A DNA stretch of 64,000 nt from a bacterium (GTDB lineage Bacteria > 4484-113). The notes under the pieces are model-generated. The model searched no databases. It was not told where the DNA came from and saw only the letters and a program-made list of their open reading frames with translations. Made by a program: the position numbers and the translations under genes. This document shows, one piece after another, positions 4,962 through 29,698 of this stretch (its first letter is position 1; the number at the start of each line of letters is the position of its first letter). The stretch lies in assembly GCA_021163765.1 (NCBI GenBank), contig JAGGTK010000053.1, positions 8,017 to 72,016 on the forward strand, written 5' to 3'.

Positions 4962-6191
4962 TTACACGCGCAGCGCTTTTCCTTTGAAAATGCCCTGTTT
5001 AAGCCCGTCCAGGCTCACATTTATCAGTCCGGTTTCAGCCGGCGATGGTTCAACGCAGACACGCTGATAGGCTTCGCCGTAACCGCAACCGCTGTCCTCT
5101 AGAGCTACTTCACACTCCGAACCGACGAATCTGGCAAGCGCCTTTTGAGATACACTCTTGGATAACGCCAGAAGCTTGTCCTGTCGCCTGCTGACAACAG
5201 AGCTTGGCAGCAGCCCCATTTCACTCGCGGCAGTGTTGGGCCTTGTACTGAACCGGAAGATATGGACTCGCTCAAATGCACATGCGCTAACCATCTCACC
5301 TGTTAGTTCGAAATCCTCATCCGTTTCTGCAGGGAAACCAACCATCAGGTCTGTTGTCACTGCCGCATCAGGGTGCAACTTGCGGAACTTCTTAACTAAG
5401 TCCCTGTAGTACGTGCTGTCGTAATTCCGCCGCATCGCGGCCAGTACAGAGTCGCTGCCCGATTGCAGTGGAAGGTGCAAATGCGGGCAGAGACGCGGAT
5501 GTGAGAATAGCTCCAGCATCTCGTCAGTTACATGCTCCGGCTCAATGGAGGACAACCGCAATCTGGACGACTCCGGCAATATCGCAAGGGCCCGCCTCAG
5601 CAGCGACATAAGACCGTAGCCTTCATCCGGGTCGGTGTAAAGCCCAAGGTTTATCCCGCACAGGACTATCTCCGGTGTTCCGGTGTTCACGCTCTCCATC
5701 ATCTCATCTATCACCTGTTCTCCACGCTTGCACTCCATGGACCGAACGTAAGGGATGATACAGTAAGTGCAGTAGCTGTTACAGCCGTCCTGTATCTTAA
5801 TGAAGCGCCTTGTGCGCGTGTCTTCTGGAGCGGGAACAGGCAATCCGTCTTTCCCGAGCGCCTCAGAAACCAGGTTGGGATTTCCGATTATTGTTGCGCC
5901 AAGCGATTCAAACTGAGAGGCTATTTTTTCCTCGCGCGCCGCACAGCCAGTGACGATGAGTCTGGCTCGCGGGAATTCACGCAGGCAGCGTCGCGCATAC
6001 TGCCTTGCCTTCTTCACTGCGCCAGCCGTCACGGCACACGTGTTCACGACAACAGCGTCAGGCGGTGCAGCCTTGCCCCACCCGCTTGAAATATGGCTGC
6101 ATTGATGACCGAGCTTAGCCAGAGCAGAAACAAGTGCTTCTGTATCGGCGTAGTTAACTTTGCAGCCGAAGGTCTTTATGAACACACGCAC
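4962..6191 (-). CDS. MiaB/RimO-family radical SAM methylthiotransferase (MtaB-like)
   Basis: N-terminal MTTase domain (IKTFGCKVNYADTE), radical SAM CxxxCxxC (CNSYCTYC), C-terminal TRAM-like region. Confidence 0.85.
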   Translation of the reverse strand: MRVFIKTFGCKVNYADTEALVSALAKLGHQCSHISSGWGKAAPPDAVVVNTCAVTAGAVKKARQYARRCLREFPRARLIVTGCAAREEKIASQFESLGATIIGNPNLVSEALGKDGLPVPAPEDTRTRRFIKIQDGCNSYCTYCIIPYVRSMECKRGEQVIDEMMESVNTGTPEIVLCGINLGLYTDPDEGYGLMSLLRRALAILPESSRLRLSSIEPEHVTDEMLELFSHPRLCPHLHLPLQSGSDSVLAAMRRNYDSTYYRDLVKKFRKLHPDAAVTTDLMVGFPAETDEDFELTGEMVSACAFERVHIFRFSTRPNTAASEMGLLPSSVVSRRQDKLLALSKSVSQKALARFVGSECEVALEDSGCGYGEAYQRVCVEPSPAETGLINVSLDGLKQGIFKGKALRV

Positions 6192-6208
6192 AAAGATATT
6201 GTAGCCCA

Positions 6209-6330
6209 GCGCAGATAGAATGGCGCTTAGTTATCGGAACCTGCTGCTTTCATCGCATAGAGCGCTGCGCCCAGCGCCCAAACCGACGCTGGCTCATCGG
6301 GCACTATGATCTCACAGGCAACCTCTTCGG
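6209..6330 (-). pseudogene. possible gene remnant: C-terminal approx. 40 aa resembling BcrAD/HgdC-type activase (ASKHA ATPase) tail
   Basis: minus-strand translation IIVPDEPASVWALGAALYAMKAAGSDN* with no intact upstream domain; preceded by short out-of-frame ORF MKKGIEITDNRSRPEPMSS*. Confidence 0.3.
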
Positions 6331-6394
6331 CAAGCAGCTCACGAACTCATGGGTTCAGGGCGACTCCTGTTGTCGGTAATCTCGATTCCCTTCT

Positions 6395-7279
6395 TCATCC
6401 GTGCCGCACCATCTCCCCTACAAAAAGCCGGTAGTGTGCTGGCAGAGTCCGCTTTTTGTGCGAAATGACGAAGAACTTCCGCTTCATTCTGAGACCTTCC
6501 ATTCTGGCCACTGCCAGCCTTCCAGCAGATATCTCATCTGTAAGCGCAAACTTCGACAGAATCGATGCCCCGAGGCCCGCCTTGATTGCTTCTCTCACTG
6601 CGCCCGTCGAGCCGAGCACCGCCACTACGTTGAGGTCTTTGACGCCAAATCCCTTCTCCGCAAGGTACTCCTCCATTACCTTCCTCGTGCCTGAGCCTTC
6701 CTCTCTCAATAAAAACGGGATTGAACCGAGCAGCTTCAGCGAGACGCTGCGACGTCCAATCAACTGCGGAGAACCAGCTAGAACCAGTTCGTCTTCTACG
6801 AAAGGCGTGTAATCCAGTTTGCCGTTAACGGTCTTCGCCCCAACGGTGCCCAGCAGTATTTCGTGGTTCAGCACCAGGTTGGCTATTTCCTCTGTATCCC
6901 CAAGCCGGATTTCGAACGAAACGCCAGGATATTGCTTCACGAAGTCCGCGGCGATTGCCGGAAGGATATATGTCCCGGGAATAGTGCTCGCTCCGATAAC
7001 AAGCTCGCCCGCAACGTCGCGGTTTACACCCCGGATGGCATCCGGTATCCCGTCAAGTTTCTCTGTCAGGTCCAGAGCGTGAAGATAGAGCACTTCCGCT
7101 TCTTTAGTGGGGATCACCCTGCGCCCCGTCCGGTCGAAGAGCTTGCAGCCAAGTTCCTTCTCCAGGCTCATCACGTGATTGCTGACTGTCGGTTGCGTGA
7201 GCTTCAGTTCTCTGGACGCCTTCGAGAAGCTCTTTTGCCTGAATACAGAGGCGAATACGCGCAGTTGATGAACATCCAT
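6395..7279 (-). CDS. LysR-family transcriptional regulator
   Basis: N-terminal HTH MDVHQLRVFASVFRQKSFSKASRELKLTQPTVSNHV, LysR substrate-binding domain; likely start ATG at 7279 rather than ORF start 7432. Confidence 0.85.
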   Translation of the reverse strand: MDVHQLRVFASVFRQKSFSKASRELKLTQPTVSNHVMSLEKELGCKLFDRTGRRVIPTKEAEVLYLHALDLTEKLDGIPDAIRGVNRDVAGELVIGASTIPGTYILPAIAADFVKQYPGVSFEIRLGDTEEIANLVLNHEILLGTVGAKTVNGKLDYTPFVEDELVLAGSPQLIGRRSVSLKLLGSIPFLLREEGSGTRKVMEEYLAEKGFGVKDLNVVAVLGSTGAVREAIKAGLGASILSKFALTDEISAGRLAVARMEGLRMKRKFFVISHKKRTLPAHYRLFVGEMVRHG

Positions 7280-24890: not shown

Positions 24891-26285
24891 TCAGCCGATT
24901 TTGTGGATTGCGTGCCCGTTGACGTCCAAGGCCGCTTCGCCGATAGCTTCGGCAAGTGTTGGATGCGCACGCACAAGCTGCTGGTATTCAGCCAGCTTCA
25001 TGCGTGCGGCGAGTGCCACCTCAGCCTCGTGTATCAATTCGCCCGCCATCGGCCCGACCATATGCATACCGAGCATCTCATCGCTGTCTTCATCCGCTAC
25101 GACGATCACGAGGCCAACCGCCTGGTTCATAGCCATGGCTCTGCCATTCGCGCCAAAGAAGAACCTGCCTGTCTTCACCTTGTGACCTTTCTCTGCTGCC
25201 TGCTGCTCCGTCAATCCGATGCTGGCCACTTCCGGCGACGTGTAGACCACTGCGGGAACGAGCCGCGACTTGGGATGCGGGAAACCCGCAAGCACCTCAG
25301 CGGCCGCCACACCCTCGTGGCTTGCTTTATGCGCCAGCATCAATCCGCCTATTACATCTCCTATCGCCATCACGTTGGGCACGGCTGTGCGATACTCGTC
25401 GTTGACCTTTATAAAGCCTTTCCTGTCGGTTTCAACGCCTATTGCGCCAAGGTTTAGAGTATCTGTAACTGGTGCCCGCCCTACTGAAAGCAAAACGAGT
25501 TCGGCATCGATTGTGCCGGTGAACTTGCCCTCCACAGATAGCGCAACGCCCTCCCCGGAAATCTCCAGCGAGGTCACTTTGCTCTCCAGGTGAATCGCAA
25601 TCTTATCCTTTTTCAACTGCCGCACGAGCGTTTTCGCCAGCTCAACGTCCATCCCAGGCAGCGCCTGCGGCATAATCTCCACAAAGCAAACCTCCGTCCC
25701 CAGCCGTGCATAGACGCTGCCAAGCTCCAGGCCAATAGCGCCTGCTCCGATGACAGCCAGCGACTTGGGAATACCGGGCAGCGAAAGCGCCTCTGTGGAG
25801 GTAATCACGCGTTCCCCGTCCGGTTTGATGTGCGGGAGCGTTGCAGAACGGGAGCCTGTAGCGATTATGAAGTTATCCGCGATTATCTCGGATTTTTGCC
25901 CATCCGCATATGAGACTCCAAGTGCACGTTCATCCTTGAATTGCGCATCACCGAAATACAGGGCCACGCCGTTCTTCTTGAGAAGAACCTCGACACCGCG
26001 CGTAAGCTGATGCACGACCTTCTCTTTGCGTGACTGCATCGCTTGCCAATCGTGGGTCACACCCGTGGCATTCACTCCCCGCAAGGCCCCGTGCTTCACA
26101 ACTTCGTAATAGAGATGCGTGTCTTCAAGCAAGCACTTGCTGGGGATGCATCCCACATTTAGACACACACCACCCCAGTACCGGCGCTCGATAATAGCCA
26201 CACTGAGACCAAGTTGGGCAGCGCGGATTGCCGCGACATACCCACCGGGACCGGCGCCGATGACCGCTACATCGTATCGTTCCAT
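24891..26285 (-). CDS. lpdA: dihydrolipoyl dehydrogenase
   Basis: FAD-binding VIGAGPGGY, redox-active disulfide GGVCLNVGCIPSK, C-terminal dimerisation domain. Confidence 0.9.
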   Translation of the reverse strand: MERYDVAVIGAGPGGYVAAIRAAQLGLSVAIIERRYWGGVCLNVGCIPSKCLLEDTHLYYEVVKHGALRGVNATGVTHDWQAMQSRKEKVVHQLTRGVEVLLKKNGVALYFGDAQFKDERALGVSYADGQKSEIIADNFIIATGSRSATLPHIKPDGERVITSTEALSLPGIPKSLAVIGAGAIGLELGSVYARLGTEVCFVEIMPQALPGMDVELAKTLVRQLKKDKIAIHLESKVTSLEISGEGVALSVEGKFTGTIDAELVLLSVGRAPVTDTLNLGAIGVETDRKGFIKVNDEYRTAVPNVMAIGDVIGGLMLAHKASHEGVAAAEVLAGFPHPKSRLVPAVVYTSPEVASIGLTEQQAAEKGHKVKTGRFFFGANGRAMAMNQAVGLVIVVADEDSDEMLGMHMVGPMAGELIHEAEVALAARMKLAEYQQLVRAHPTLAEAIGEAALDVNGHAIHKIG

Positions 26286-26575
26286 AAGTCAGTATCTCCT
26301 TGATACTTGTAGATACAGGATAATTCTAGCATCCTATCAATCAGGCTCTAACTGACCTCTGGTTAAGTAAGCCTGGCCGGGCGCTCTTTCGCCATCAATC
26401 GAAAACCGGCTGGCGGCTCAGCCGATTTGGGCTTTACTAGCATCATTGGCGCTAAAGCGGTAGAATAAATAGGAGAGGATTAATCAGGACGCCAAGGAGC
26501 AGTTTGTGGCCGTTTTGGTGTCCTGAGTGAAATCCACCGGTCCGGCTTTATCTTTTCAGGGAGGACTCGCTGGGA

Positions 26576-27517
26576 ATGGCCGAAAAGTCGCCTGCTGACC
26601 TGATTCGGGAAGCAATGGAGCATCTTGATCAACCCACCACTCCTTCGGAGATCGTTCGATACGTCAGCAAAAGGTATCCGAAAATCGATGAATCCAAGAT
26701 ACGCTCGCAGGTAACTATCTGTTGCGTGAACATGCCTACACGCGTCAGCTTCCCGGAAAACCACAAGCCGCGCGTAGCCGACAACCCTGAACTAGACTGC
26801 CTTTACCGCGTAGACTTCGGGCAATATGTCTCGTATGACCCGGAGCAACACGGCTATTGGGAGATATCGGAGGTTAATGGTGAGCTTGCTGTACGTAAAA
26901 CGGAAGCTAAACCTTCCGGAGCCAAGCCTGATAAGGACAAGGCTGCGCCCGTCAAGGAGAAGGCACCCGAGCCGAAGATAAGCTCCAAGGCCGAACCTGT
27001 AGCCGCGCCAGGCGAAAAGGCCGAAGCTGAGCCTGCGCAAGCTGCGGCCCCTCGGGAGCCTGCCAAGCCTCACCCGCCTGCGAAGGCCAGGCCAGCGCAG
27101 GCGCCTGAGAAGGAGAAAATCGCTCGCAAACAAGACAAGGAGGCGGAACCCGAAATGGATATTCATAAAGCCCTGGCATCAAACCTCAGTGAGGTCGAGG
27201 ACGGCCTTAAACCTCTGACCGGTGATCCGGTTGCTGGTAAGTTCCCTGCAAAGCTCACCGATGCTGACTTTCTCGCTCAAGGACGAGACGGAGCCCTGGT
27301 CATTGTCAAGGTCTTTGACAGCCCGCCTGGACAGCAGGTGGTTACTGACCTGCTCGTCAACCTGGGCTGGGCTCACGAGCAGATGAAGGAACGCAAGGTG
27401 CGCGCAATTATCCTGTCGCCTGAGATTCCTGACGAACTCCGCTTCGCTACCAGAACCGTTCCCGACATCAAGATAATGACGTACGAGTACAAGCTGGTAT
27501 TCTCCGCTGTGGGGTAA
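26576..27517 (+). CDS. HARE-HTH domain protein with Lys/Pro/Ala/Glu-rich linker and NucS/PD-(D/E)xK-like C-terminal domain
   Basis: N-terminal DLIREAMEHLDQPTTPSEIVRYVSKRYP resembles HARE-HTH; C-terminal DFLAQGRDGALVIVKVF..AIILSPE resembles NucS/DUF91 nuclease core (catalytic E replaced by V). Confidence 0.55.
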   Translation: MAEKSPADLIREAMEHLDQPTTPSEIVRYVSKRYPKIDESKIRSQVTICCVNMPTRVSFPENHKPRVADNPELDCLYRVDFGQYVSYDPEQHGYWEISEVNGELAVRKTEAKPSGAKPDKDKAAPVKEKAPEPKISSKAEPVAAPGEKAEAEPAQAAAPREPAKPHPPAKARPAQAPEKEKIARKQDKEAEPEMDIHKALASNLSEVEDGLKPLTGDPVAGKFPAKLTDADFLAQGRDGALVIVKVFDSPPGQQVVTDLLVNLGWAHEQMKERKVRAIILSPEIPDELRFATRTVPDIKIMTYEYKLVFSAVG

Positions 27518-28545: not shown

Positions 28546-29235
28546 CTACAAAACGGCAGGGCGCAGGTAAGCGACATCCGCCCAGGGCCGAGCCCGCCCC
28601 GCAGAAACCTCCTGCACCATCATTGCCGCCATTCCCCGAATATCCACAACGTTCTCTCGCAGCACTGCATCAACGCGTGCCGGCGTTTCGCCCTTATTTA
28701 GTGTAGCAAAGACCTGATCAGAGTCAGTCACAACAAGCACGTTTGAACTGAGTGCGACTCCGGCAAGGCGTTCGAACAATCCCGGTATTTCCGCCGCAGA
28801 TAGCTCGCGCTCAGGCTCCACGGAGATGGCGGCTGTCCCATCAGGACTGCGTTCAAAAACACCCACGAAGTACGCCTTCCGCCTGCCGCAGCGAACCACA
28901 GAAACGTTCGGAGTCTCAAGTATCGCTATTGCTGCCGCAGTCTGAAGGCTGCTAACCGCTATTACAGGCAACGAAAGAGCCACTGCCATCCCGTTCGCAA
29001 AGGCCACTCCCGTCCGAGTGCCAATAAACGAGCCAGGGCCAATCCCAACGCCCAGATGAGTTATGTCACCGCGCTCAGCGCCAGCGTCGCCCAGACATTC
29101 CGTTAAAAGATTAGACAGCCGAGAAGCGTTGTCCGGTGTGTGCTCAAGAACTCCAGCGCTCAGAATGCGGCCCTCACCGTCCGCGAGGGCTACCAGCAAA
29201 CTGTTTCCCGAAGTATCAATCAGCGCGTAGAGCAT
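28546..29235 (-). CDS. tsaB: tRNA threonylcarbamoyladenosine biosynthesis protein TsaB
   Basis: MLYALIDTSGNSLLVAL start, GVGIGPGSFIGTRTGVAFANG motif; longer ORF to 29454 overlaps tsaE and is unlikely. Confidence 0.82.
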   Translation of the reverse strand: MLYALIDTSGNSLLVALADGEGRILSAGVLEHTPDNASRLSNLLTECLGDAGAERGDITHLGVGIGPGSFIGTRTGVAFANGMAVALSLPVIAVSSLQTAAAIAILETPNVSVVRCGRRKAYFVGVFERSPDGTAAISVEPERELSAAEIPGLFERLAGVALSSNVLVVTDSDQVFATLNKGETPARVDAVLRENVVDIRGMAAMMVQEVSAGRARPWADVAYLRPAVL

Positions 29236-29698
29236 TAAGCATCTCCGACGGAAATACTCCCGTTTCAGCCGAGATTGTAAGGCTGCGCTCGCACTCATCC
29301 GCCCCTTGTCCGAAGCGAATGGTAATTCTGGGCGCTGAGACCTGCAAGCCAAAACGGTCCGCCCATTCGACAGCCACCACAGCATCATCGGGCAGGTCCT
29401 CGGCCAGGCCCAAAGGGACCGTCTCAACCAGGGAGGAGAGGCGAAACAGGTCAACGTGGCGCAGTGGCCTGTCCCCCTCAGAATAGTCCTTCATAAGCAA
29501 GAATGAGGGGCTGGTAACGACGCTGTTTATTCCTAATCCCTGTGCAAGTCCTTGAACAAATGTAGTCTTGCCTGAACCGAGCGGCCCAATCAGCAGTAAA
29601 ACCACCAAGGACACAGGGAGTTGAGCAACCAGGCGCGCTGCCACAGCTCGTGTTTCGTCCGCTGACCTGGTTGTGAGCACGATGTCCCTCGAGCACAT
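29216..29698 (-). CDS. tsaE: tRNA threonylcarbamoyladenosine biosynthesis ATPase TsaE
   Basis: P-loop GPLGSGKTTF, YjeE family size (160 aa). Confidence 0.85.
   Translation of the reverse strand: MCSRDIVLTTRSADETRAVAARLVAQLPVSLVVLLLIGPLGSGKTTFVQGLAQGLGINSVVTSPSFLLMKDYSEGDRPLRHVDLFRLSSLVETVPLGLAEDLPDDAVVAVEWADRFGLQVSAPRITIRFGQGADECERSLTISAETGVFPSEMLNALRAD

What the first reader, a model, noticed from the sequence alone, without database searches (positions are those of the whole stretch)
26576..27517. HARE-HTH N-terminal domain fused through a low-complexity K/P/A/E linker to a NucS/PD-(D/E)xK-like domain
The N-terminal approx. 60 aa look like a HARE-HTH DNA-binding domain. The C-terminal approx. 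90 aa resemble the NucS/DUF91 nuclease core, but the catalytic E of the (D/E)xK triad appears replaced by V. This suggests a DNA-binding, possibly catalytically inactive, regulator. The gene lies divergent from lpdA, which leaves a 290-bp shared control region.
Basis: partly seen in the sequence, partly recalled or inferred. Interest (0 to 1): 0.55.

Follow-up and report, generated by a model that had tools for sequence, protein, structure and literature searches.

The report
Nuclease-dead NucS-like protein with winged-helix domain
This gene encodes a conserved protein of an uncultivated bacterial lineage that descends from a family of DNA-cutting enzymes but has lost the residues needed for cutting, so it most likely now only binds DNA; it is a tidy but not surprising case of an enzyme turned into a binding protein.

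Summary

- **N-terminal domain (residues 1-110).** This is Pfam DUF7669, a winged-helix-like domain. It is not a detectable HARE-HTH member.
- **Linker (residues 111-194).** It is K/P/A/E-rich and predicted to be disordered.
- **C-terminal domain (residues 195-313).** It has a NucS C-terminal (PD-(D/E)xK) fold. NucS and EndoMS are the top PDB matches by both sequence profile and structure (TM 0.72).
- **Catalytic residues.** The catalytic signature is gone. D231 is kept, but the E of ExK is K245 (not V), the K is F247, and the QxxxY motif is now DxxxN.
- **Relatives.** Hundreds of shorter DUF7669+NucS_C proteins keep D...ExK...QxxxY and sit in variable contexts, with restriction-modification, toxin-antitoxin and recombinase-type genes among their scattered neighbours. 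The window's clade, about 20 proteins from one uncultivated lineage, is the nuclease-dead, long-linker branch. It sits at a fixed housekeeping locus, divergent from lpdA in 9 of 9 core loci.

Best reading: a former nuclease that now binds DNA without cleaving it, as a regulator or chromosome-associated factor. Specific control of lpdA is possible but has no operator evidence. I rate it a new variant of a known kind, of moderate-to-low interest.

The parts
26576..27517 (+). CDS, 313 aa (stop codon 27515-27517): DUF7669 domain, disordered linker, degenerate NucS_C-like domain
   Evidence: ORF list. There are 21 homologs, all carrying DUF7669. dN/dS is 0.04-0.14 in the folded domains. It is the only copy in the window.
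26576..26905 (+). N-terminal domain, residues 1-110: winged-helix-like. The Pfam DUF7669 match covers residues 8-85 (nt 26597-26830).
   Evidence: Pfam PF24706 E 2.2e-12. The AF2 model has pLDDT about 92 with helices 6-16, 23-33 and 39-49, a conserved insertion at 50-75, a beta-hairpin at 76-86 and a second hairpin at 94-109. There are 35 invariant residues, including R28, R43, N52, R56, R66 and R78. Only weak matches to winged-helix proteins were found.
26906..27157 (+). Low-complexity K/P/A/E linker, residues 111-194, predicted to be disordered
   Evidence: pLDDT is below 50 for residues 114-193. The linker is 76% K/P/A/E, its length ranges from 52 to 110 aa across the family and its net charge from -15 to +6. 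dN/dS is 0.2-0.34.
26972..26995 (+). Short conserved motif inside the linker, residues 133-140 (PKISSKAE; family pattern [PA]K[IV]x[AGS][KRS]A)
   Evidence: I135 and A139 are nearly invariant in an otherwise variable linker. The motif is absent from outgroup P0020.
27158..27514 (+). C-terminal domain, residues 195-313: NucS C-terminal (PD-(D/E)xK, RecB-like) fold
   Evidence: A profile search against PDB ranks NucS 2vld first (E 0.0085) and EndoMS 5gke second. The domain model has pLDDT 86.9. Foldseek gives 2vld TM 0.72 with E 1e-5 and 5gke E 7e-6. Of 58 profile relatives, 56 match Pfam NucS_C.
27266..27316 (+). Degenerate catalytic hairpin: D231 (27266-27268) is retained. K245-V246-F247 (27308-27316) replaces the E-x-K of active relatives.
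   Evidence: Alignment to NucS D160, E174 and K176. Column counts in 149 relatives are D 147, E 104 and K 106. In the family they are D 21/21, K 21/21 and F 20/21. The codons were read directly from the sequence.
27347..27361 (+). Degenerate QxxxY motif: D258 to N262
   Evidence: Relatives have Q in 110 of 149 and Y in 106 of 149 at these columns. The family has D in 18 of 21 and N in 19 of 21.
26286..26575 (.). 290-bp intergenic region between the divergent lpdA-type gene and this gene
   Evidence: The alignment of 9 orthologous intergenic regions conserves only -10-like boxes and the ribosome-binding sites. There is no Rfam match.
26461..26466 (+). -10-like TAGAAT hexamer upstream of this gene (inferred promoter element)
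   Evidence: 'GCGGTAGAAT' is conserved in the window, L007, L008, L005, L010 and L011. The consensus promoter scan did not flag it.
26323..26328 (-). -10-like TAGAAT (extended TGCTAGAAT) on the minus strand upstream of lpdA (inferred)
   Evidence: 'ATTCTAGCA' is conserved next to lpdA in most orthologous loci.
26484..26526 (+). Inverted repeat / 5'-leader hairpin (12-nt arms, 19-nt spacer), about 50 nt upstream of the ATG
   Evidence: Repeat I1. It forms the dominant stem in the leader fold. The stem is kept in L007 and L008, with 4 of 17 pairs changed on both sides.
24891..26285 (-). Divergent neighbour: lpdA-type FAD/NAD disulphide oxidoreductase (context, not part of the protein)
   Evidence: Pfam Pyr_redox_2 and Pyr_redox_dim. 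It is adjacent and divergent in all 9 core loci.

Best explanation
The gene encodes a vertically inherited, lineage-specific protein derived from the DUF7669+NucS_C family of two-domain nucleases.

**Shown**
- It keeps the N-terminal DUF7669 winged-helix-like domain and the NucS-type PD-(D/E)xK fold.
- The metal-binding E is K245, the catalytic K is F247, and QxxxY is DxxxN.
- The inter-domain linker has grown from about 25 aa to about 85 disordered residues.
- Both folded domains are under strong purifying selection.
- The gene sits at a fixed housekeeping locus.

**Inferred**
- The protein no longer cleaves DNA. It works as a non-catalytic nucleic-acid-binding factor.
- The DUF7669 domain provides recognition through the third helix (the position of a winged-helix recognition helix), the invariant N52/R56/R66 insertion and the wing.
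- The dead NucS-like domain provides a second DNA-contact or oligomerisation surface. K245 probably pairs with D231 in place of the lost metal ion.
- The flexible linker lets the two modules engage separated sites or partners.
- The likely cellular role is a transcription regulator or chromosome-associated protein, possibly acting at its own bidirectional promoter region shared with lpdA.
For: **Architecture and fold**
- DUF7669 matches at E 2e-12.
- AF2 gives two confident domains and a disordered linker.
- NucS and EndoMS are the top PDB matches by profile and by fold, with TM 0.66-0.72 and E 7e-6 to 1e-4.
- 56 of 58 profile relatives match Pfam NucS_C, and 16 of 58 also carry DUF7669.

**Loss of the active site**
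- Column statistics show the loss is fixed in the family while relatives keep the motif.
- In a neighbour-joining tree, KxF forms one clade with P0020 (KxE) and P0023 (ExE) at its base. Every other DUF7669+NucS_C protein in the tree but one (P0046, ExS) has ExK.

**The domains are still functional**
- dN/dS is 0.04-0.06 for the N-terminal domain and 0.06-0.14 for the C-terminal domain, against 0.2-0.34 for the linker.
- 51 columns are invariant across proteins that are 38-82% identical.

**Housekeeping rather than mobile context**
- The order lpdA | gene | pyrF-tsaB-tsaE-pyrK is conserved.
- Active relatives sit in variable neighbourhoods where methyltransferase, ResIII, HNH, resolvase, Xre-HTH and antitoxin genes recur among otherwise unrelated neighbours. 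Their nuclease domain matches the PADLOC defence candidate PDC-S02.

**Precedent**
Against: - No DNA-binding experiment exists, and no conserved operator was found.
- All three segments are net acidic or neutral, with the N-terminal domain at pI about 5 and the C-terminal domain at pI 5-7. That is unusual for a general DNA-coating protein and also fits a protein-protein role.
- D231, E208, E268 and E304 stay invariant, so a rearranged active site cannot be excluded from sequence alone.
- The N-terminal domain has no significant match to any experimentally characterised DNA-binding domain.
- Whether the dead domain contacts DNA or dimerises could not be modelled.
Confidence: 0.55

Rival explanations
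1. It is a dedicated transcriptional regulator of the divergent lpdA-type gene, and of itself, acting on the 290-bp shared region.
For: - The divergent lpdA|gene adjacency is kept in all 9 core loci across 46-77% protein identity. That includes L005 and L010, where the downstream neighbour changed from pyrF to tyrS.
- Both genes have conserved -10-like TAGAAT boxes in the region.
- An 8-nt direct repeat, CTAGCATC, overlaps both promoter regions in the window.
Against: - The intergenic alignment shows no conserved palindrome or operator across the family. CTAGCATC is not conserved beyond the closest relatives.
- Outgroups P0020 and P0023 sit next to gdh or hemC instead, with an HD-GYP-type gene downstream.
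- Adjacency within one lineage can simply be inherited synteny.
Confidence: 0.15
2. It is a protein-protein adaptor rather than a DNA binder. For example, it could be an RNA-polymerase-associated factor analogous to the Firmicute delta subunit (a winged-helix domain plus a disordered tail), with the dead nuclease fold acting as an interaction module like the Rpb5 N-terminal domain.
For: - The folded domains are acidic, and the long disordered linker carries a conserved short motif.
- Rpb5-type inactive restriction-fold domains of RNA polymerases appear among the weaker fold matches.
- The helix 1 to helix 2 segment aligns in register with delta HARE-HTH, although not significantly.
Against: - There is no significant similarity to delta or HARE-HTH: probability 1% and no PF05066 hit.
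- The linker is not the strongly acidic tail typical of delta, since its net charge runs from -15 to +6.
- The invariant arginines lie in the third helix, the insertion and the wing (R43, R56, R66, R78), which suits nucleic-acid contact.
- There is no partner gene in the neighbourhood.
Confidence: 0.17
3. It is still an active nuclease with a rearranged catalytic centre (for example D231, K245 and an acidic residue recruited from a helix, as in some type II restriction enzymes). In that case it would work in repair or restriction.
For: - D231 and K245 are invariant and face the same pocket according to the alignment.
- E208, E268 and E304 are invariant.
- From my own knowledge of the superfamily: PD-(D/E)xK enzymes are known in which catalytic residues have migrated to other positions.
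Against: - Four of the five signature positions changed together: E to K, K to F, Q to D and Y to N.
- D258 and N262 are not invariant in the family.
- E208 is equally conserved in active relatives, so it is not a newly recruited residue.
- The NucS N-terminal mismatch-binding domain is absent.
- The context is housekeeping, with no methyltransferase or defence genes.
Confidence: 0.1
4. It is an anti-phage or restriction-type defence gene, such as a type IV-like winged-helix-nuclease fusion or PADLOC PDC-S02.
For: - The architecture (winged helix plus PD-(D/E)xK) resembles winged-helix-nuclease type IV enzymes (PMC11037411).
- Active relatives hit PDC-S02 at E 1e-23 to 1e-32. One of them sits next to a methyltransferase and an AbiEii gene.
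Against: - The window protein hits PDC-S02 only at E 0.003, and only over the C-terminal domain.
- The catalytic residues are lost.
- The locus is a fixed, syntenic housekeeping locus in every genome examined.
- There is no PHROG match.
Confidence: 0.03

Closest known systems
DUF7669 + NucS_C two-domain proteins (annotated 'endonuclease NucS domain-containing protein' or 'DUF91 domain-containing protein', e.g. HEX4211915.1, MBI4174011.1); uncharacterised
   Same: - The same two domains occur in the same order.
- The N-terminal domains are recognisably homologous: the window-family HMM hits P0155, P0054, P0060 and P0095 at E 1e-19 to 1e-24.
- The signature 'VNxPSRxxYPEN..PR' is shared.
- The C-terminal motifs E.GL, GW and VRGI are shared.
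   Different: - The relatives are about 240-265 aa with a linker of about 25 aa. They keep D...ExK...QxxxY in 71 of 77 cases.
- They occur in many phyla, with at least 447 metagenome hits, and in variable neighbourhoods.
- The window clade has KxF and DxxxN, a linker of 52-110 aa, and a fixed housekeeping locus in a single lineage.
EndoMS/NucS mismatch endonuclease (PDB 2VLD, 5GKE; Pfam NucS_C PF01939)
   Same: The C-terminal domain fold matches, with TM 0.66-0.72 over 113-117 of 124 residues. The alignment runs in register through the D...ExK hairpin and the VRGI strand.
   Different: - The NucS N-terminal dimerisation and mismatch-binding domain is absent and is replaced by DUF7669.
- The catalytic E and K and the QxxxY motif are lost.
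- Pfam NucS_C does not hit the window protein, and the NCBIfam NucS equivalog scores 15 bits against a cut-off of 216.
- The actinobacterial clamp motif [EK][LY][TR]LF (PMC8228993) is only approximated by E304-YKLVF, which has one extra residue, and that segment is conserved in all relatives.
HARE-HTH domain (Pfam PF05066; RNA polymerase delta subunit, ASXL, restriction enzymes)
   Same: Both are short N-terminal helical modules of the winged-helix type fused to, among other things, restriction-fold nucleases. The helix 1 to helix 2 sequence pattern aligns in the same register.
   Different: - No PF05066 hit at E<=10 in 19 of 19 members.
- hhalign probability is 0.3-3%.
- HARE-HTH is described as having an extra helix inside the HTH (PMC11037411). 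The model here joins helices 2 and 3 by a 5-residue turn and instead has a 25-residue insertion after helix 3.
Winged-helix-nuclease fusion type IV restriction enzymes and Mrr-type enzymes
   Same: The modular logic is the same: an N-terminal winged-helix DNA or modification sensor is tethered to a nuclease domain (PMC11037411).
   Different: Those enzymes are active and modification-dependent, and they are defence genes. This protein lacks the catalytic residues and sits in a housekeeping context. No homology of the winged-helix domains was shown.
Catalytically inactive PD-(D/E)xK domains (e.g. the Rpb5 N-terminal domain)
   Same: A restriction-endonuclease fold is retained without the catalytic motif and reused as a structural or binding module. 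PMC3424549 states this for the superfamily. Rpb5-type proteins appear among the weak fold hits.
   Different: These are different families with no specific homology. The partner or ligand of the window protein is unknown.
PADLOC phage-defence candidate PDC-S02
   Same: The nuclease domain of active relatives matches models PDLC04824 and PDLC04799 at E 1e-23 to 1e-32.
   Different: Only the C-terminal 130 positions of the 308-position model match. The window protein scores E 0.003. PDC-S02 is itself only a candidate system, and I found no functional characterisation of it in the hit list from the held library, which I judged from titles and abstracts only.

Membership tests
Pfam DUF7669 (PF24706) | Match to the family HMM above the gathering score | tested here: met
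   47.5 bits against a cut-off of 23, E 2.2e-12, residues 8-85 covering model positions 4-74 of 75. All 21 homologs carry it, and 19 of 19 diverse N-terminal domains match, with a best E of 1e-21.
HARE-HTH (PF05066) | Match to the family HMM | tested here: not met
   No hit at E<=10 for the window protein or for 19 diverse DUF7669 domains. The positive control, B. subtilis delta residues 1-90, gives E 2.9e-18.
HARE-HTH (PF05066) | Profile-profile similarity to bona fide HARE-HTH domains | tested here: not met
   hhalign of A6 (19 sequences) against 47 delta-subunit HARE-HTH domains gives probability 1.1% and P 0.049 over 40 columns. A3 gives 3.4%. Against a single delta sequence the probability is 0.3%. 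Only the delta-type branch of HARE-HTH was available as a profile.
HARE-HTH (PF05066) | Winged-helix core with an extra helix inserted in the HTH (as described in PMC11037411) | tested here: inconclusive
   The AF2 model shows three helices plus a beta-hairpin wing, with a short turn between helices 2 and 3 and an insertion after helix 3. No structure search on the N-terminal domain alone was possible. Weak winged-helix matches only: I73R and the Fur family.
NucS_C / PD-(D/E)xK nuclease fold (PF01939) | Core alpha-beta-beta-beta-alpha-beta fold similar to the NucS C-terminal domain | tested here: met
   Foldseek against PDB gives 2vld TM 0.72 with E 1.3e-5, and 5gke E 6.8e-6, both at probability 1.00. 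The model pLDDT is 86.9.
NucS_C / PD-(D/E)xK nuclease fold (PF01939) | Sequence homology to the family | tested here: met
   There is no direct Pfam hit. However, the family profile ranks NucS first in PDB at E 0.0085. Its relatives at E down to 1e-26 are NucS_C-positive in 56 of 58 cases. The homology is therefore transitive.
NucS_C / PD-(D/E)xK nuclease fold (PF01939) | Catalytic D...(D/E)xK triad | tested here: not met
   D231 is present. The E position holds K245 in 21 of 21 members and the K position holds F247 in 20 of 21. Relatives have E in 104 of 149 and K in 106 of 149 at these columns.
NucS_C / PD-(D/E)xK nuclease fold (PF01939) | RecB-like QxxxY motif | tested here: not met
   The family has D258 and N262. 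Relatives have Q in 110 of 149 and Y in 106 of 149.
EndoMS/NucS mismatch-repair endonuclease (orthologue) | N-terminal NucS dimerisation / mismatch-binding domain | tested here: not met
   The N-terminal domain is DUF7669. The NucS equivalog NF003270 scores 15.1 bits against a cut-off of 216 and matches only residues 191-287. PDB matches cover only NucS residues from about 127 to 219.
EndoMS/NucS mismatch-repair endonuclease (orthologue) | C-terminal sliding-clamp-binding motif ([EK][LY][TR]LF in Actinobacteria; PIP box in Archaea; PMC8228993) | tested here: inconclusive
   The tail E304-Y-K-L-V-F309 resembles the motif but has one extra residue and lies 4 residues from the C-terminus. The segment is conserved as 'YE.xFxF' in all relatives, so it may simply be part of the fold.
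Restriction / anti-phage defence gene (type IV winged-helix-nuclease fusions; PADLOC PDC-S02) | Active nuclease in a variable defence-island or restriction-modification context; match to defence models | tested here: not met
   PADLOC PDC-S02 matches only at E 0.003 over the C-terminal domain. The catalytic residues are lost. The context is a syntenic housekeeping one. There is no PHROG hit.

The most novel reading that the evidence does not exclude
A restriction-type enzyme (a DUF7669 sequence or modification reader fused to a NucS-like nuclease) was domesticated at the base of an uncultivated bacterial lineage. It became a non-cutting 'reader' protein that recognises a specific DNA sequence, structure or modification and controls transcription or chromosome organisation. 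In that reading the disordered linker and its conserved KIxxKA motif recruit a partner, for example RNA polymerase or the replisome.
Probability: 0.2. Interest if true: 0.55.

Novelty: new variant of a known kind. Interest (0 to 1): 0.35.

Why it matters
If correct, this is a clean and datable example of a nuclease module being turned into a binding protein. Intermediates are still visible along the path ExK, then ExE or KxE, then KxF. It also gives a first functional handle on Pfam DUF7669, which has no literature. The protein appears to be a conserved, lineage-restricted component of an uncultivated group, so it could serve as a marker and as a candidate lineage-specific regulator. It does not bear on a long-standing open question, and loss of activity in PD-(D/E)xK domains is a known theme (PMC3424549).

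Tried and rejected
- **Direct searches with the protein.** phmmer against PDB found only low-complexity noise from the linker. N-terminal domain profiles against PDB gave nothing significant.
- **Word-indexed search with the N-terminal profile (A3).** It returned only one truncated variant, P0022, so it gave no census of DUF7669 architectures.
- **Literature.** The Aravind and Iyer 2012 HARE-HTH paper is not in the held library. 'DUF7669' occurs in no paper.
- **RNA and promoter scans.** Rfam found nothing in the whole window. The consensus promoter and terminator scan found nothing relevant in the intergenic region.
- **Leader structure.** The alignment of all 8 leaders gave no consensus structure because the alignment was poor. 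Only the three closest loci share an alignable hairpin. Single-sequence z-scores were mostly unremarkable, apart from L008 at -3.8 and the window at -2.0.
- **Metagenome scan.** It was repeated with 4 sequences.
- **Ideas considered and dropped.** I dropped the histone-like nucleoid protein idea because the linker and both domains are not basic. I dropped the mobile or defence gene idea because of the context and the dead active site.
- **Minus-strand ORFs.** The ORFs overlapping the gene on the minus strand (26480-26764, 26792-27166 and others) are not supported. Conservation and dN/dS follow the plus-strand frame.
Full report
**1. Observation**

The ORF 26576..27517 (+) is present exactly as reported: 313 aa, ATG start, with a GGAGG about 11 nt upstream. 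It has 21 homologs among 5.8 billion proteins, all from uncultivated bacteria and all with the same N-terminus, 'MAEKSP'. Submitters label these MAGs inconsistently, as 'Planctomycetales bacterium', 'Candidatus Riflebacteria' or 'bacterium'. Codon-level comparison of orthologs gives dN/dS of 0.04-0.06 for residues 1-110, 0.06-0.14 for residues 195-313 and 0.2-0.34 for the linker. So this is a real gene in the plus-strand frame, and both ends are constrained. The overlapping minus-strand ORFs are not genes.

**2. N-terminal domain**

Pfam assigns residues 8-85 to DUF7669 (PF24706; E 2.2e-12, 47.5 bits against a cut-off of 23). The AF2 model (pLDDT about 92) shows three helices (6-16, 23-33, 39-49). 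These are followed by a 25-residue, almost invariant insertion (C50-V-N-M-P-x-R-x-x-F-P-E-N...R66), a beta-hairpin 'wing' (76-86) and a further hairpin (94-109). That is a winged-helix-type layout.

The HARE-HTH label did not pass any test I could run:
- No PF05066 hit at E<=10 for this protein, or for 19 diverse DUF7669 domains.
- The control, the B. subtilis RNAP-delta N-terminal domain, hits PF05066 at E 2.9e-18.
- A profile of 19 DUF7669 domains against a profile of 47 delta-type HARE-HTH domains gives hhalign probability 1.1% (P 0.049). The window-family profile gives 3.4%.

**3. Linker**

Residues 114-193 have pLDDT below 50. The segment is 76% K/P/A/E in the window protein. Across the family its length varies from 52 to 110 aa and its net charge from -15 to +6. 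One short motif, [PA]K[IV]x[AGS][KRS]A (residues 133-140), is conserved within it. The linker is not consistently basic, and both folded domains are acidic (pI about 5-6). That argues against a histone-like coating role.

**4. C-terminal domain**

The evidence for a NucS-type fold is as follows:
- NCBIfam gives a weak NucS hit over residues 191-287 (E 0.009).
- A profile of the family's C-terminal domains ranks P. abyssi NucS (2vld, E 0.0085) and T. kodakarensis EndoMS (5gke) first in PDB.
- The full model and the separately predicted domain (pLDDT 86.9, pTM 0.81) both hit EndoMS and NucS first, at Foldseek probability 1.00. For the domain model the E-values are 7e-6 to 1e-4 and TM is 0.66-0.72.
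- These are followed by other PD-(D/E)xK proteins: XisH, N.BspD6I, Card1 and EcoO109I.
- An exhaustive profile search of 1.84 billion representatives finds 1579 relatives, 329 of them at E<=1e-10. Of the best 58, 56 match Pfam NucS_C and 16 also carry DUF7669.

So the NucS relationship is real.

**5. Catalytic residues**

In the alignment to NucS the hairpin is gapless. D231 aligns with D160, K245 with E174, F247 with K176, D258 with Q187 and N262 with Y191 (the NucS residue numbers are from my own knowledge of the P. abyssi enzyme). Column counts agree with this:

| Window residue | 149 relatives outside the family | 21 family members |
|---|---|---|
| D231 | D in 147 | D in 21 |
| K245 | E in 104 | K in 21 |
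| F247 | K in 106 | F in 20 |
| D258 | Q in 110 | D in 18 |
| N262 | Y in 106 | N in 19 |

I infer that K245 pairs with the retained D231 and fills the former metal site.

**6. Evolutionary setting**

The closest non-family relatives with both domains (P0155, P0054, P0060, P0095 and others) are 240-265 aa, have a linker of about 25 aa and keep E...D...ExK...QxxxY. A metagenome scan found at least 447 such proteins. Of 77 full-length examples, 71 have the DUF7669 domain and 71 have the D...ExK motif. Sources name them 'endonuclease NucS domain-containing protein' or 'DUF91 domain-containing protein'.

In a neighbour-joining tree the window family (KxF) is one clade. P0020 (KxE) and P0023 (ExE; 'Planctomycetales bacterium 4484_113') branch at its base. 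Every other DUF7669+NucS_C protein in the tree but one (P0046, ExS) has ExK. Since ExK is also the state in NucS itself, the loss is derived.

The active relatives have no conserved partner gene. Their 96 immediate neighbours are scattered, with these Pfam matches recurring:

| Neighbour family | Count |
|---|---|
| Xre-type HTH | 5 |
| Eco57I methylase | 2 |
| N6 methylase | 2 |
| ResIII | 2 |
| HNH | 2 |
| Resolvase | 2 |
| CopG antitoxin | 1 |
| Uma2 | 1 |

One relative follows a methyltransferase near an AbiEii gene. Their nuclease domain matches the PADLOC defence candidate PDC-S02 at E 1e-23 to 1e-32, against 0.003 for the window protein. This pattern suggests accessory, restriction-like genes, but it does not prove that.

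**7. Genomic context of the window gene**

The order is: IF-2B-family gene (+), lpdA-type oxidoreductase (-), this gene (+), then pyrF, tsaB, tsaE and pyrK (all -), followed by 2-oxoacid:ferredoxin oxidoreductase genes. The divergent lpdA|gene pair is kept in all 9 core loci, with protein identity of 46-77%. That includes two loci where tyrS has replaced pyrF downstream. The basal members P0020 and P0023 sit between gdh or hemC and an HD-GYP-type gene instead.

The 290-bp spacer (26286-26575) contains conserved -10-like TAGAAT boxes for both genes (26461-26466 on the plus strand; 26328-26323 on the minus strand) and the two ribosome-binding sites. It has no operator-like element conserved across the family. 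The roughly 100-nt leader carries a 12-bp-arm inverted repeat (26484-26526). This is retained, with some compensatory changes, in the two closest loci, and hairpins of different sequence occupy the same place in more distant ones. Rfam finds nothing.

**8. Mechanism**

The best-supported account is a nuclease-derived, nuclease-dead protein that binds nucleic acid without cutting it.

Shown:
- The domain identities.
- The loss of four of the five signature residues.
- Strong constraint on both domains.
- Expansion of the linker.
- The fixed housekeeping locus.

Inferred:
- DNA recognition by the DUF7669 domain. The invariant arginines R43, R56, R66 and R78 and the residue N52 lie on the third helix (the position of a winged-helix recognition helix), the insertion and the wing.
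- A DNA-contact or oligomerisation role for the dead NucS-like domain.
- A regulatory or chromosome-associated function.

Rivals, with my estimates:

| Rival | Estimate |
|---|---|
| Dedicated lpdA/self regulator | 0.15 |
| Protein-protein adaptor such as a delta-like RNAP factor | 0.17 |
| Still-active nuclease with a rearranged site | 0.10 |
| Defence gene | 0.03 |

**9. Comparison with known systems**

[quoted passage not shown] In modular logic it resembles winged-helix-nuclease fusions (PMC11037411). It is a member of Pfam DUF7669 and a divergent homolog of NucS_C.

It is not an EndoMS/NucS orthologue, because it has no NucS N-terminal domain and no catalytic triad. The clamp motif of PMC8228993 is only approximated by E304-YKLVF. 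It is not a demonstrable HARE-HTH protein, and it is not a PADLOC system.

**10. Verdict**

The finding is real and largely well observed, with two mislabelled details. I rate it a new variant (a catalytically dead, long-linker, domesticated clade) of a known but uncharacterised two-domain family. Interest is moderate to low (0.35). Pseudo-nucleases are a familiar theme and no mechanism is demonstrated. However, the visible stepwise decay (ExK, then ExE or KxE, then KxF) and the contrast between fixed and variable genomic context make it a neat test case.

Noticed in passing
window 26484-26526 (+), 5' leader of the gene: There is an inverted repeat, TCAGGACGCCAA...TTGGTGTCCTGA (12-nt arms, 19-nt spacer), which forms the dominant hairpin of the roughly 100-nt leader. 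The stem is kept in L007 and L008, with 4 of 17 pairs changed on both sides. Hairpins of unrelated sequence occupy the same position in L001, L005 and L010. It could be an RNA stability or regulatory element, or a DNA palindrome.
   Followed up: partly
window 26323-26333 (minus strand) and 26437-26466 (plus strand): -10-like TAGAAT boxes are conserved for both divergent genes (TGCTAGAAT for lpdA, GCGGTAGAAT for this gene). The octamer CTAGCATC is repeated at 26326 and 26437, overlapping both putative promoters. The repeat is not conserved beyond the closest relatives.
   Followed up: partly
window 26972-26995 (residues 133-140): A short conserved motif, [PA]K[IV]x[AGS][KRS]A, lies inside an otherwise fast-evolving disordered linker. 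It is absent from the basal member P0020. It may be a partner-binding peptide.
   Followed up: no
window 27485-27502 (residues 304-309, EYKLVF): The nearly invariant C-terminal tail resembles the actinobacterial NucS clamp-binding motif [EK][LY][TR]LF and the QxxLxF type of beta-clamp motif, but with one extra residue and E in place of Q. Active relatives have 'YEVxFxF' here, so it may simply be the last strand of the fold.
   Followed up: partly
L003 7057-8802 and L013 7078-8856 (loci of P0020 and P0023): In both basal, partly degenerate members (KxE and ExE), the gene is followed on the same strand by a large HD / HD_5 (HD-GYP-type) protein, which has a dCache sensor domain in L013. This neighbour is absent from the core family.
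   Followed up: no
relatives P0033, P0040, P0044, P0058, P0059, P0063, P0038, P0053 and others: 47 of the 149 best NucS_C relatives lack D/ExK. One recurring pattern is E to M/L, K to A/S/V and Y to R ('DV[ML].[AVS]...R..GWK'). This suggests that this nuclease domain has been inactivated independently in other lineages.
   Followed up: no
L015 4585-5490 / 6001-6792 and L016 347-1360 / 1871-2662: The active relative P0095 (Dormibacteraeota) is preceded in two independent contigs by a Methyltransf_11/25 (faint UPF0020) gene, with an AbiEii-like gene nearby in L015. This may be a restriction-modification-like pair.
   Followed up: no
P0022 (157 aa) and L002 6001-6039: P0022 is a variant of P0019 with an internal deletion of most of the N-terminal domain and a truncated end, which is probably an assembly or frameshift artefact. 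The gene call for P0018 carries a 13-residue 5' extension (MHSELSLCSLGKL) not shared by any homolog.
   Followed up: partly
window 28546-29454 (minus strand): The listed 302-aa ORF for tsaB overlaps tsaE (29216-29698) by about 240 nt. Homologs are about 222-225 aa, so the real start is probably downstream of the listed TTG.
   Followed up: no
records of L007, L009, L010 and L011 ('Planctomycetales bacterium'), P0007 ('Candidatus Riflebacteria'), P0001 ('bacterium'): MAGs carrying this syntenic gene are filed under different phyla by their submitters, so the lineage is probably misclassified or unnamed in NCBI taxonomy.
   Followed up: partly
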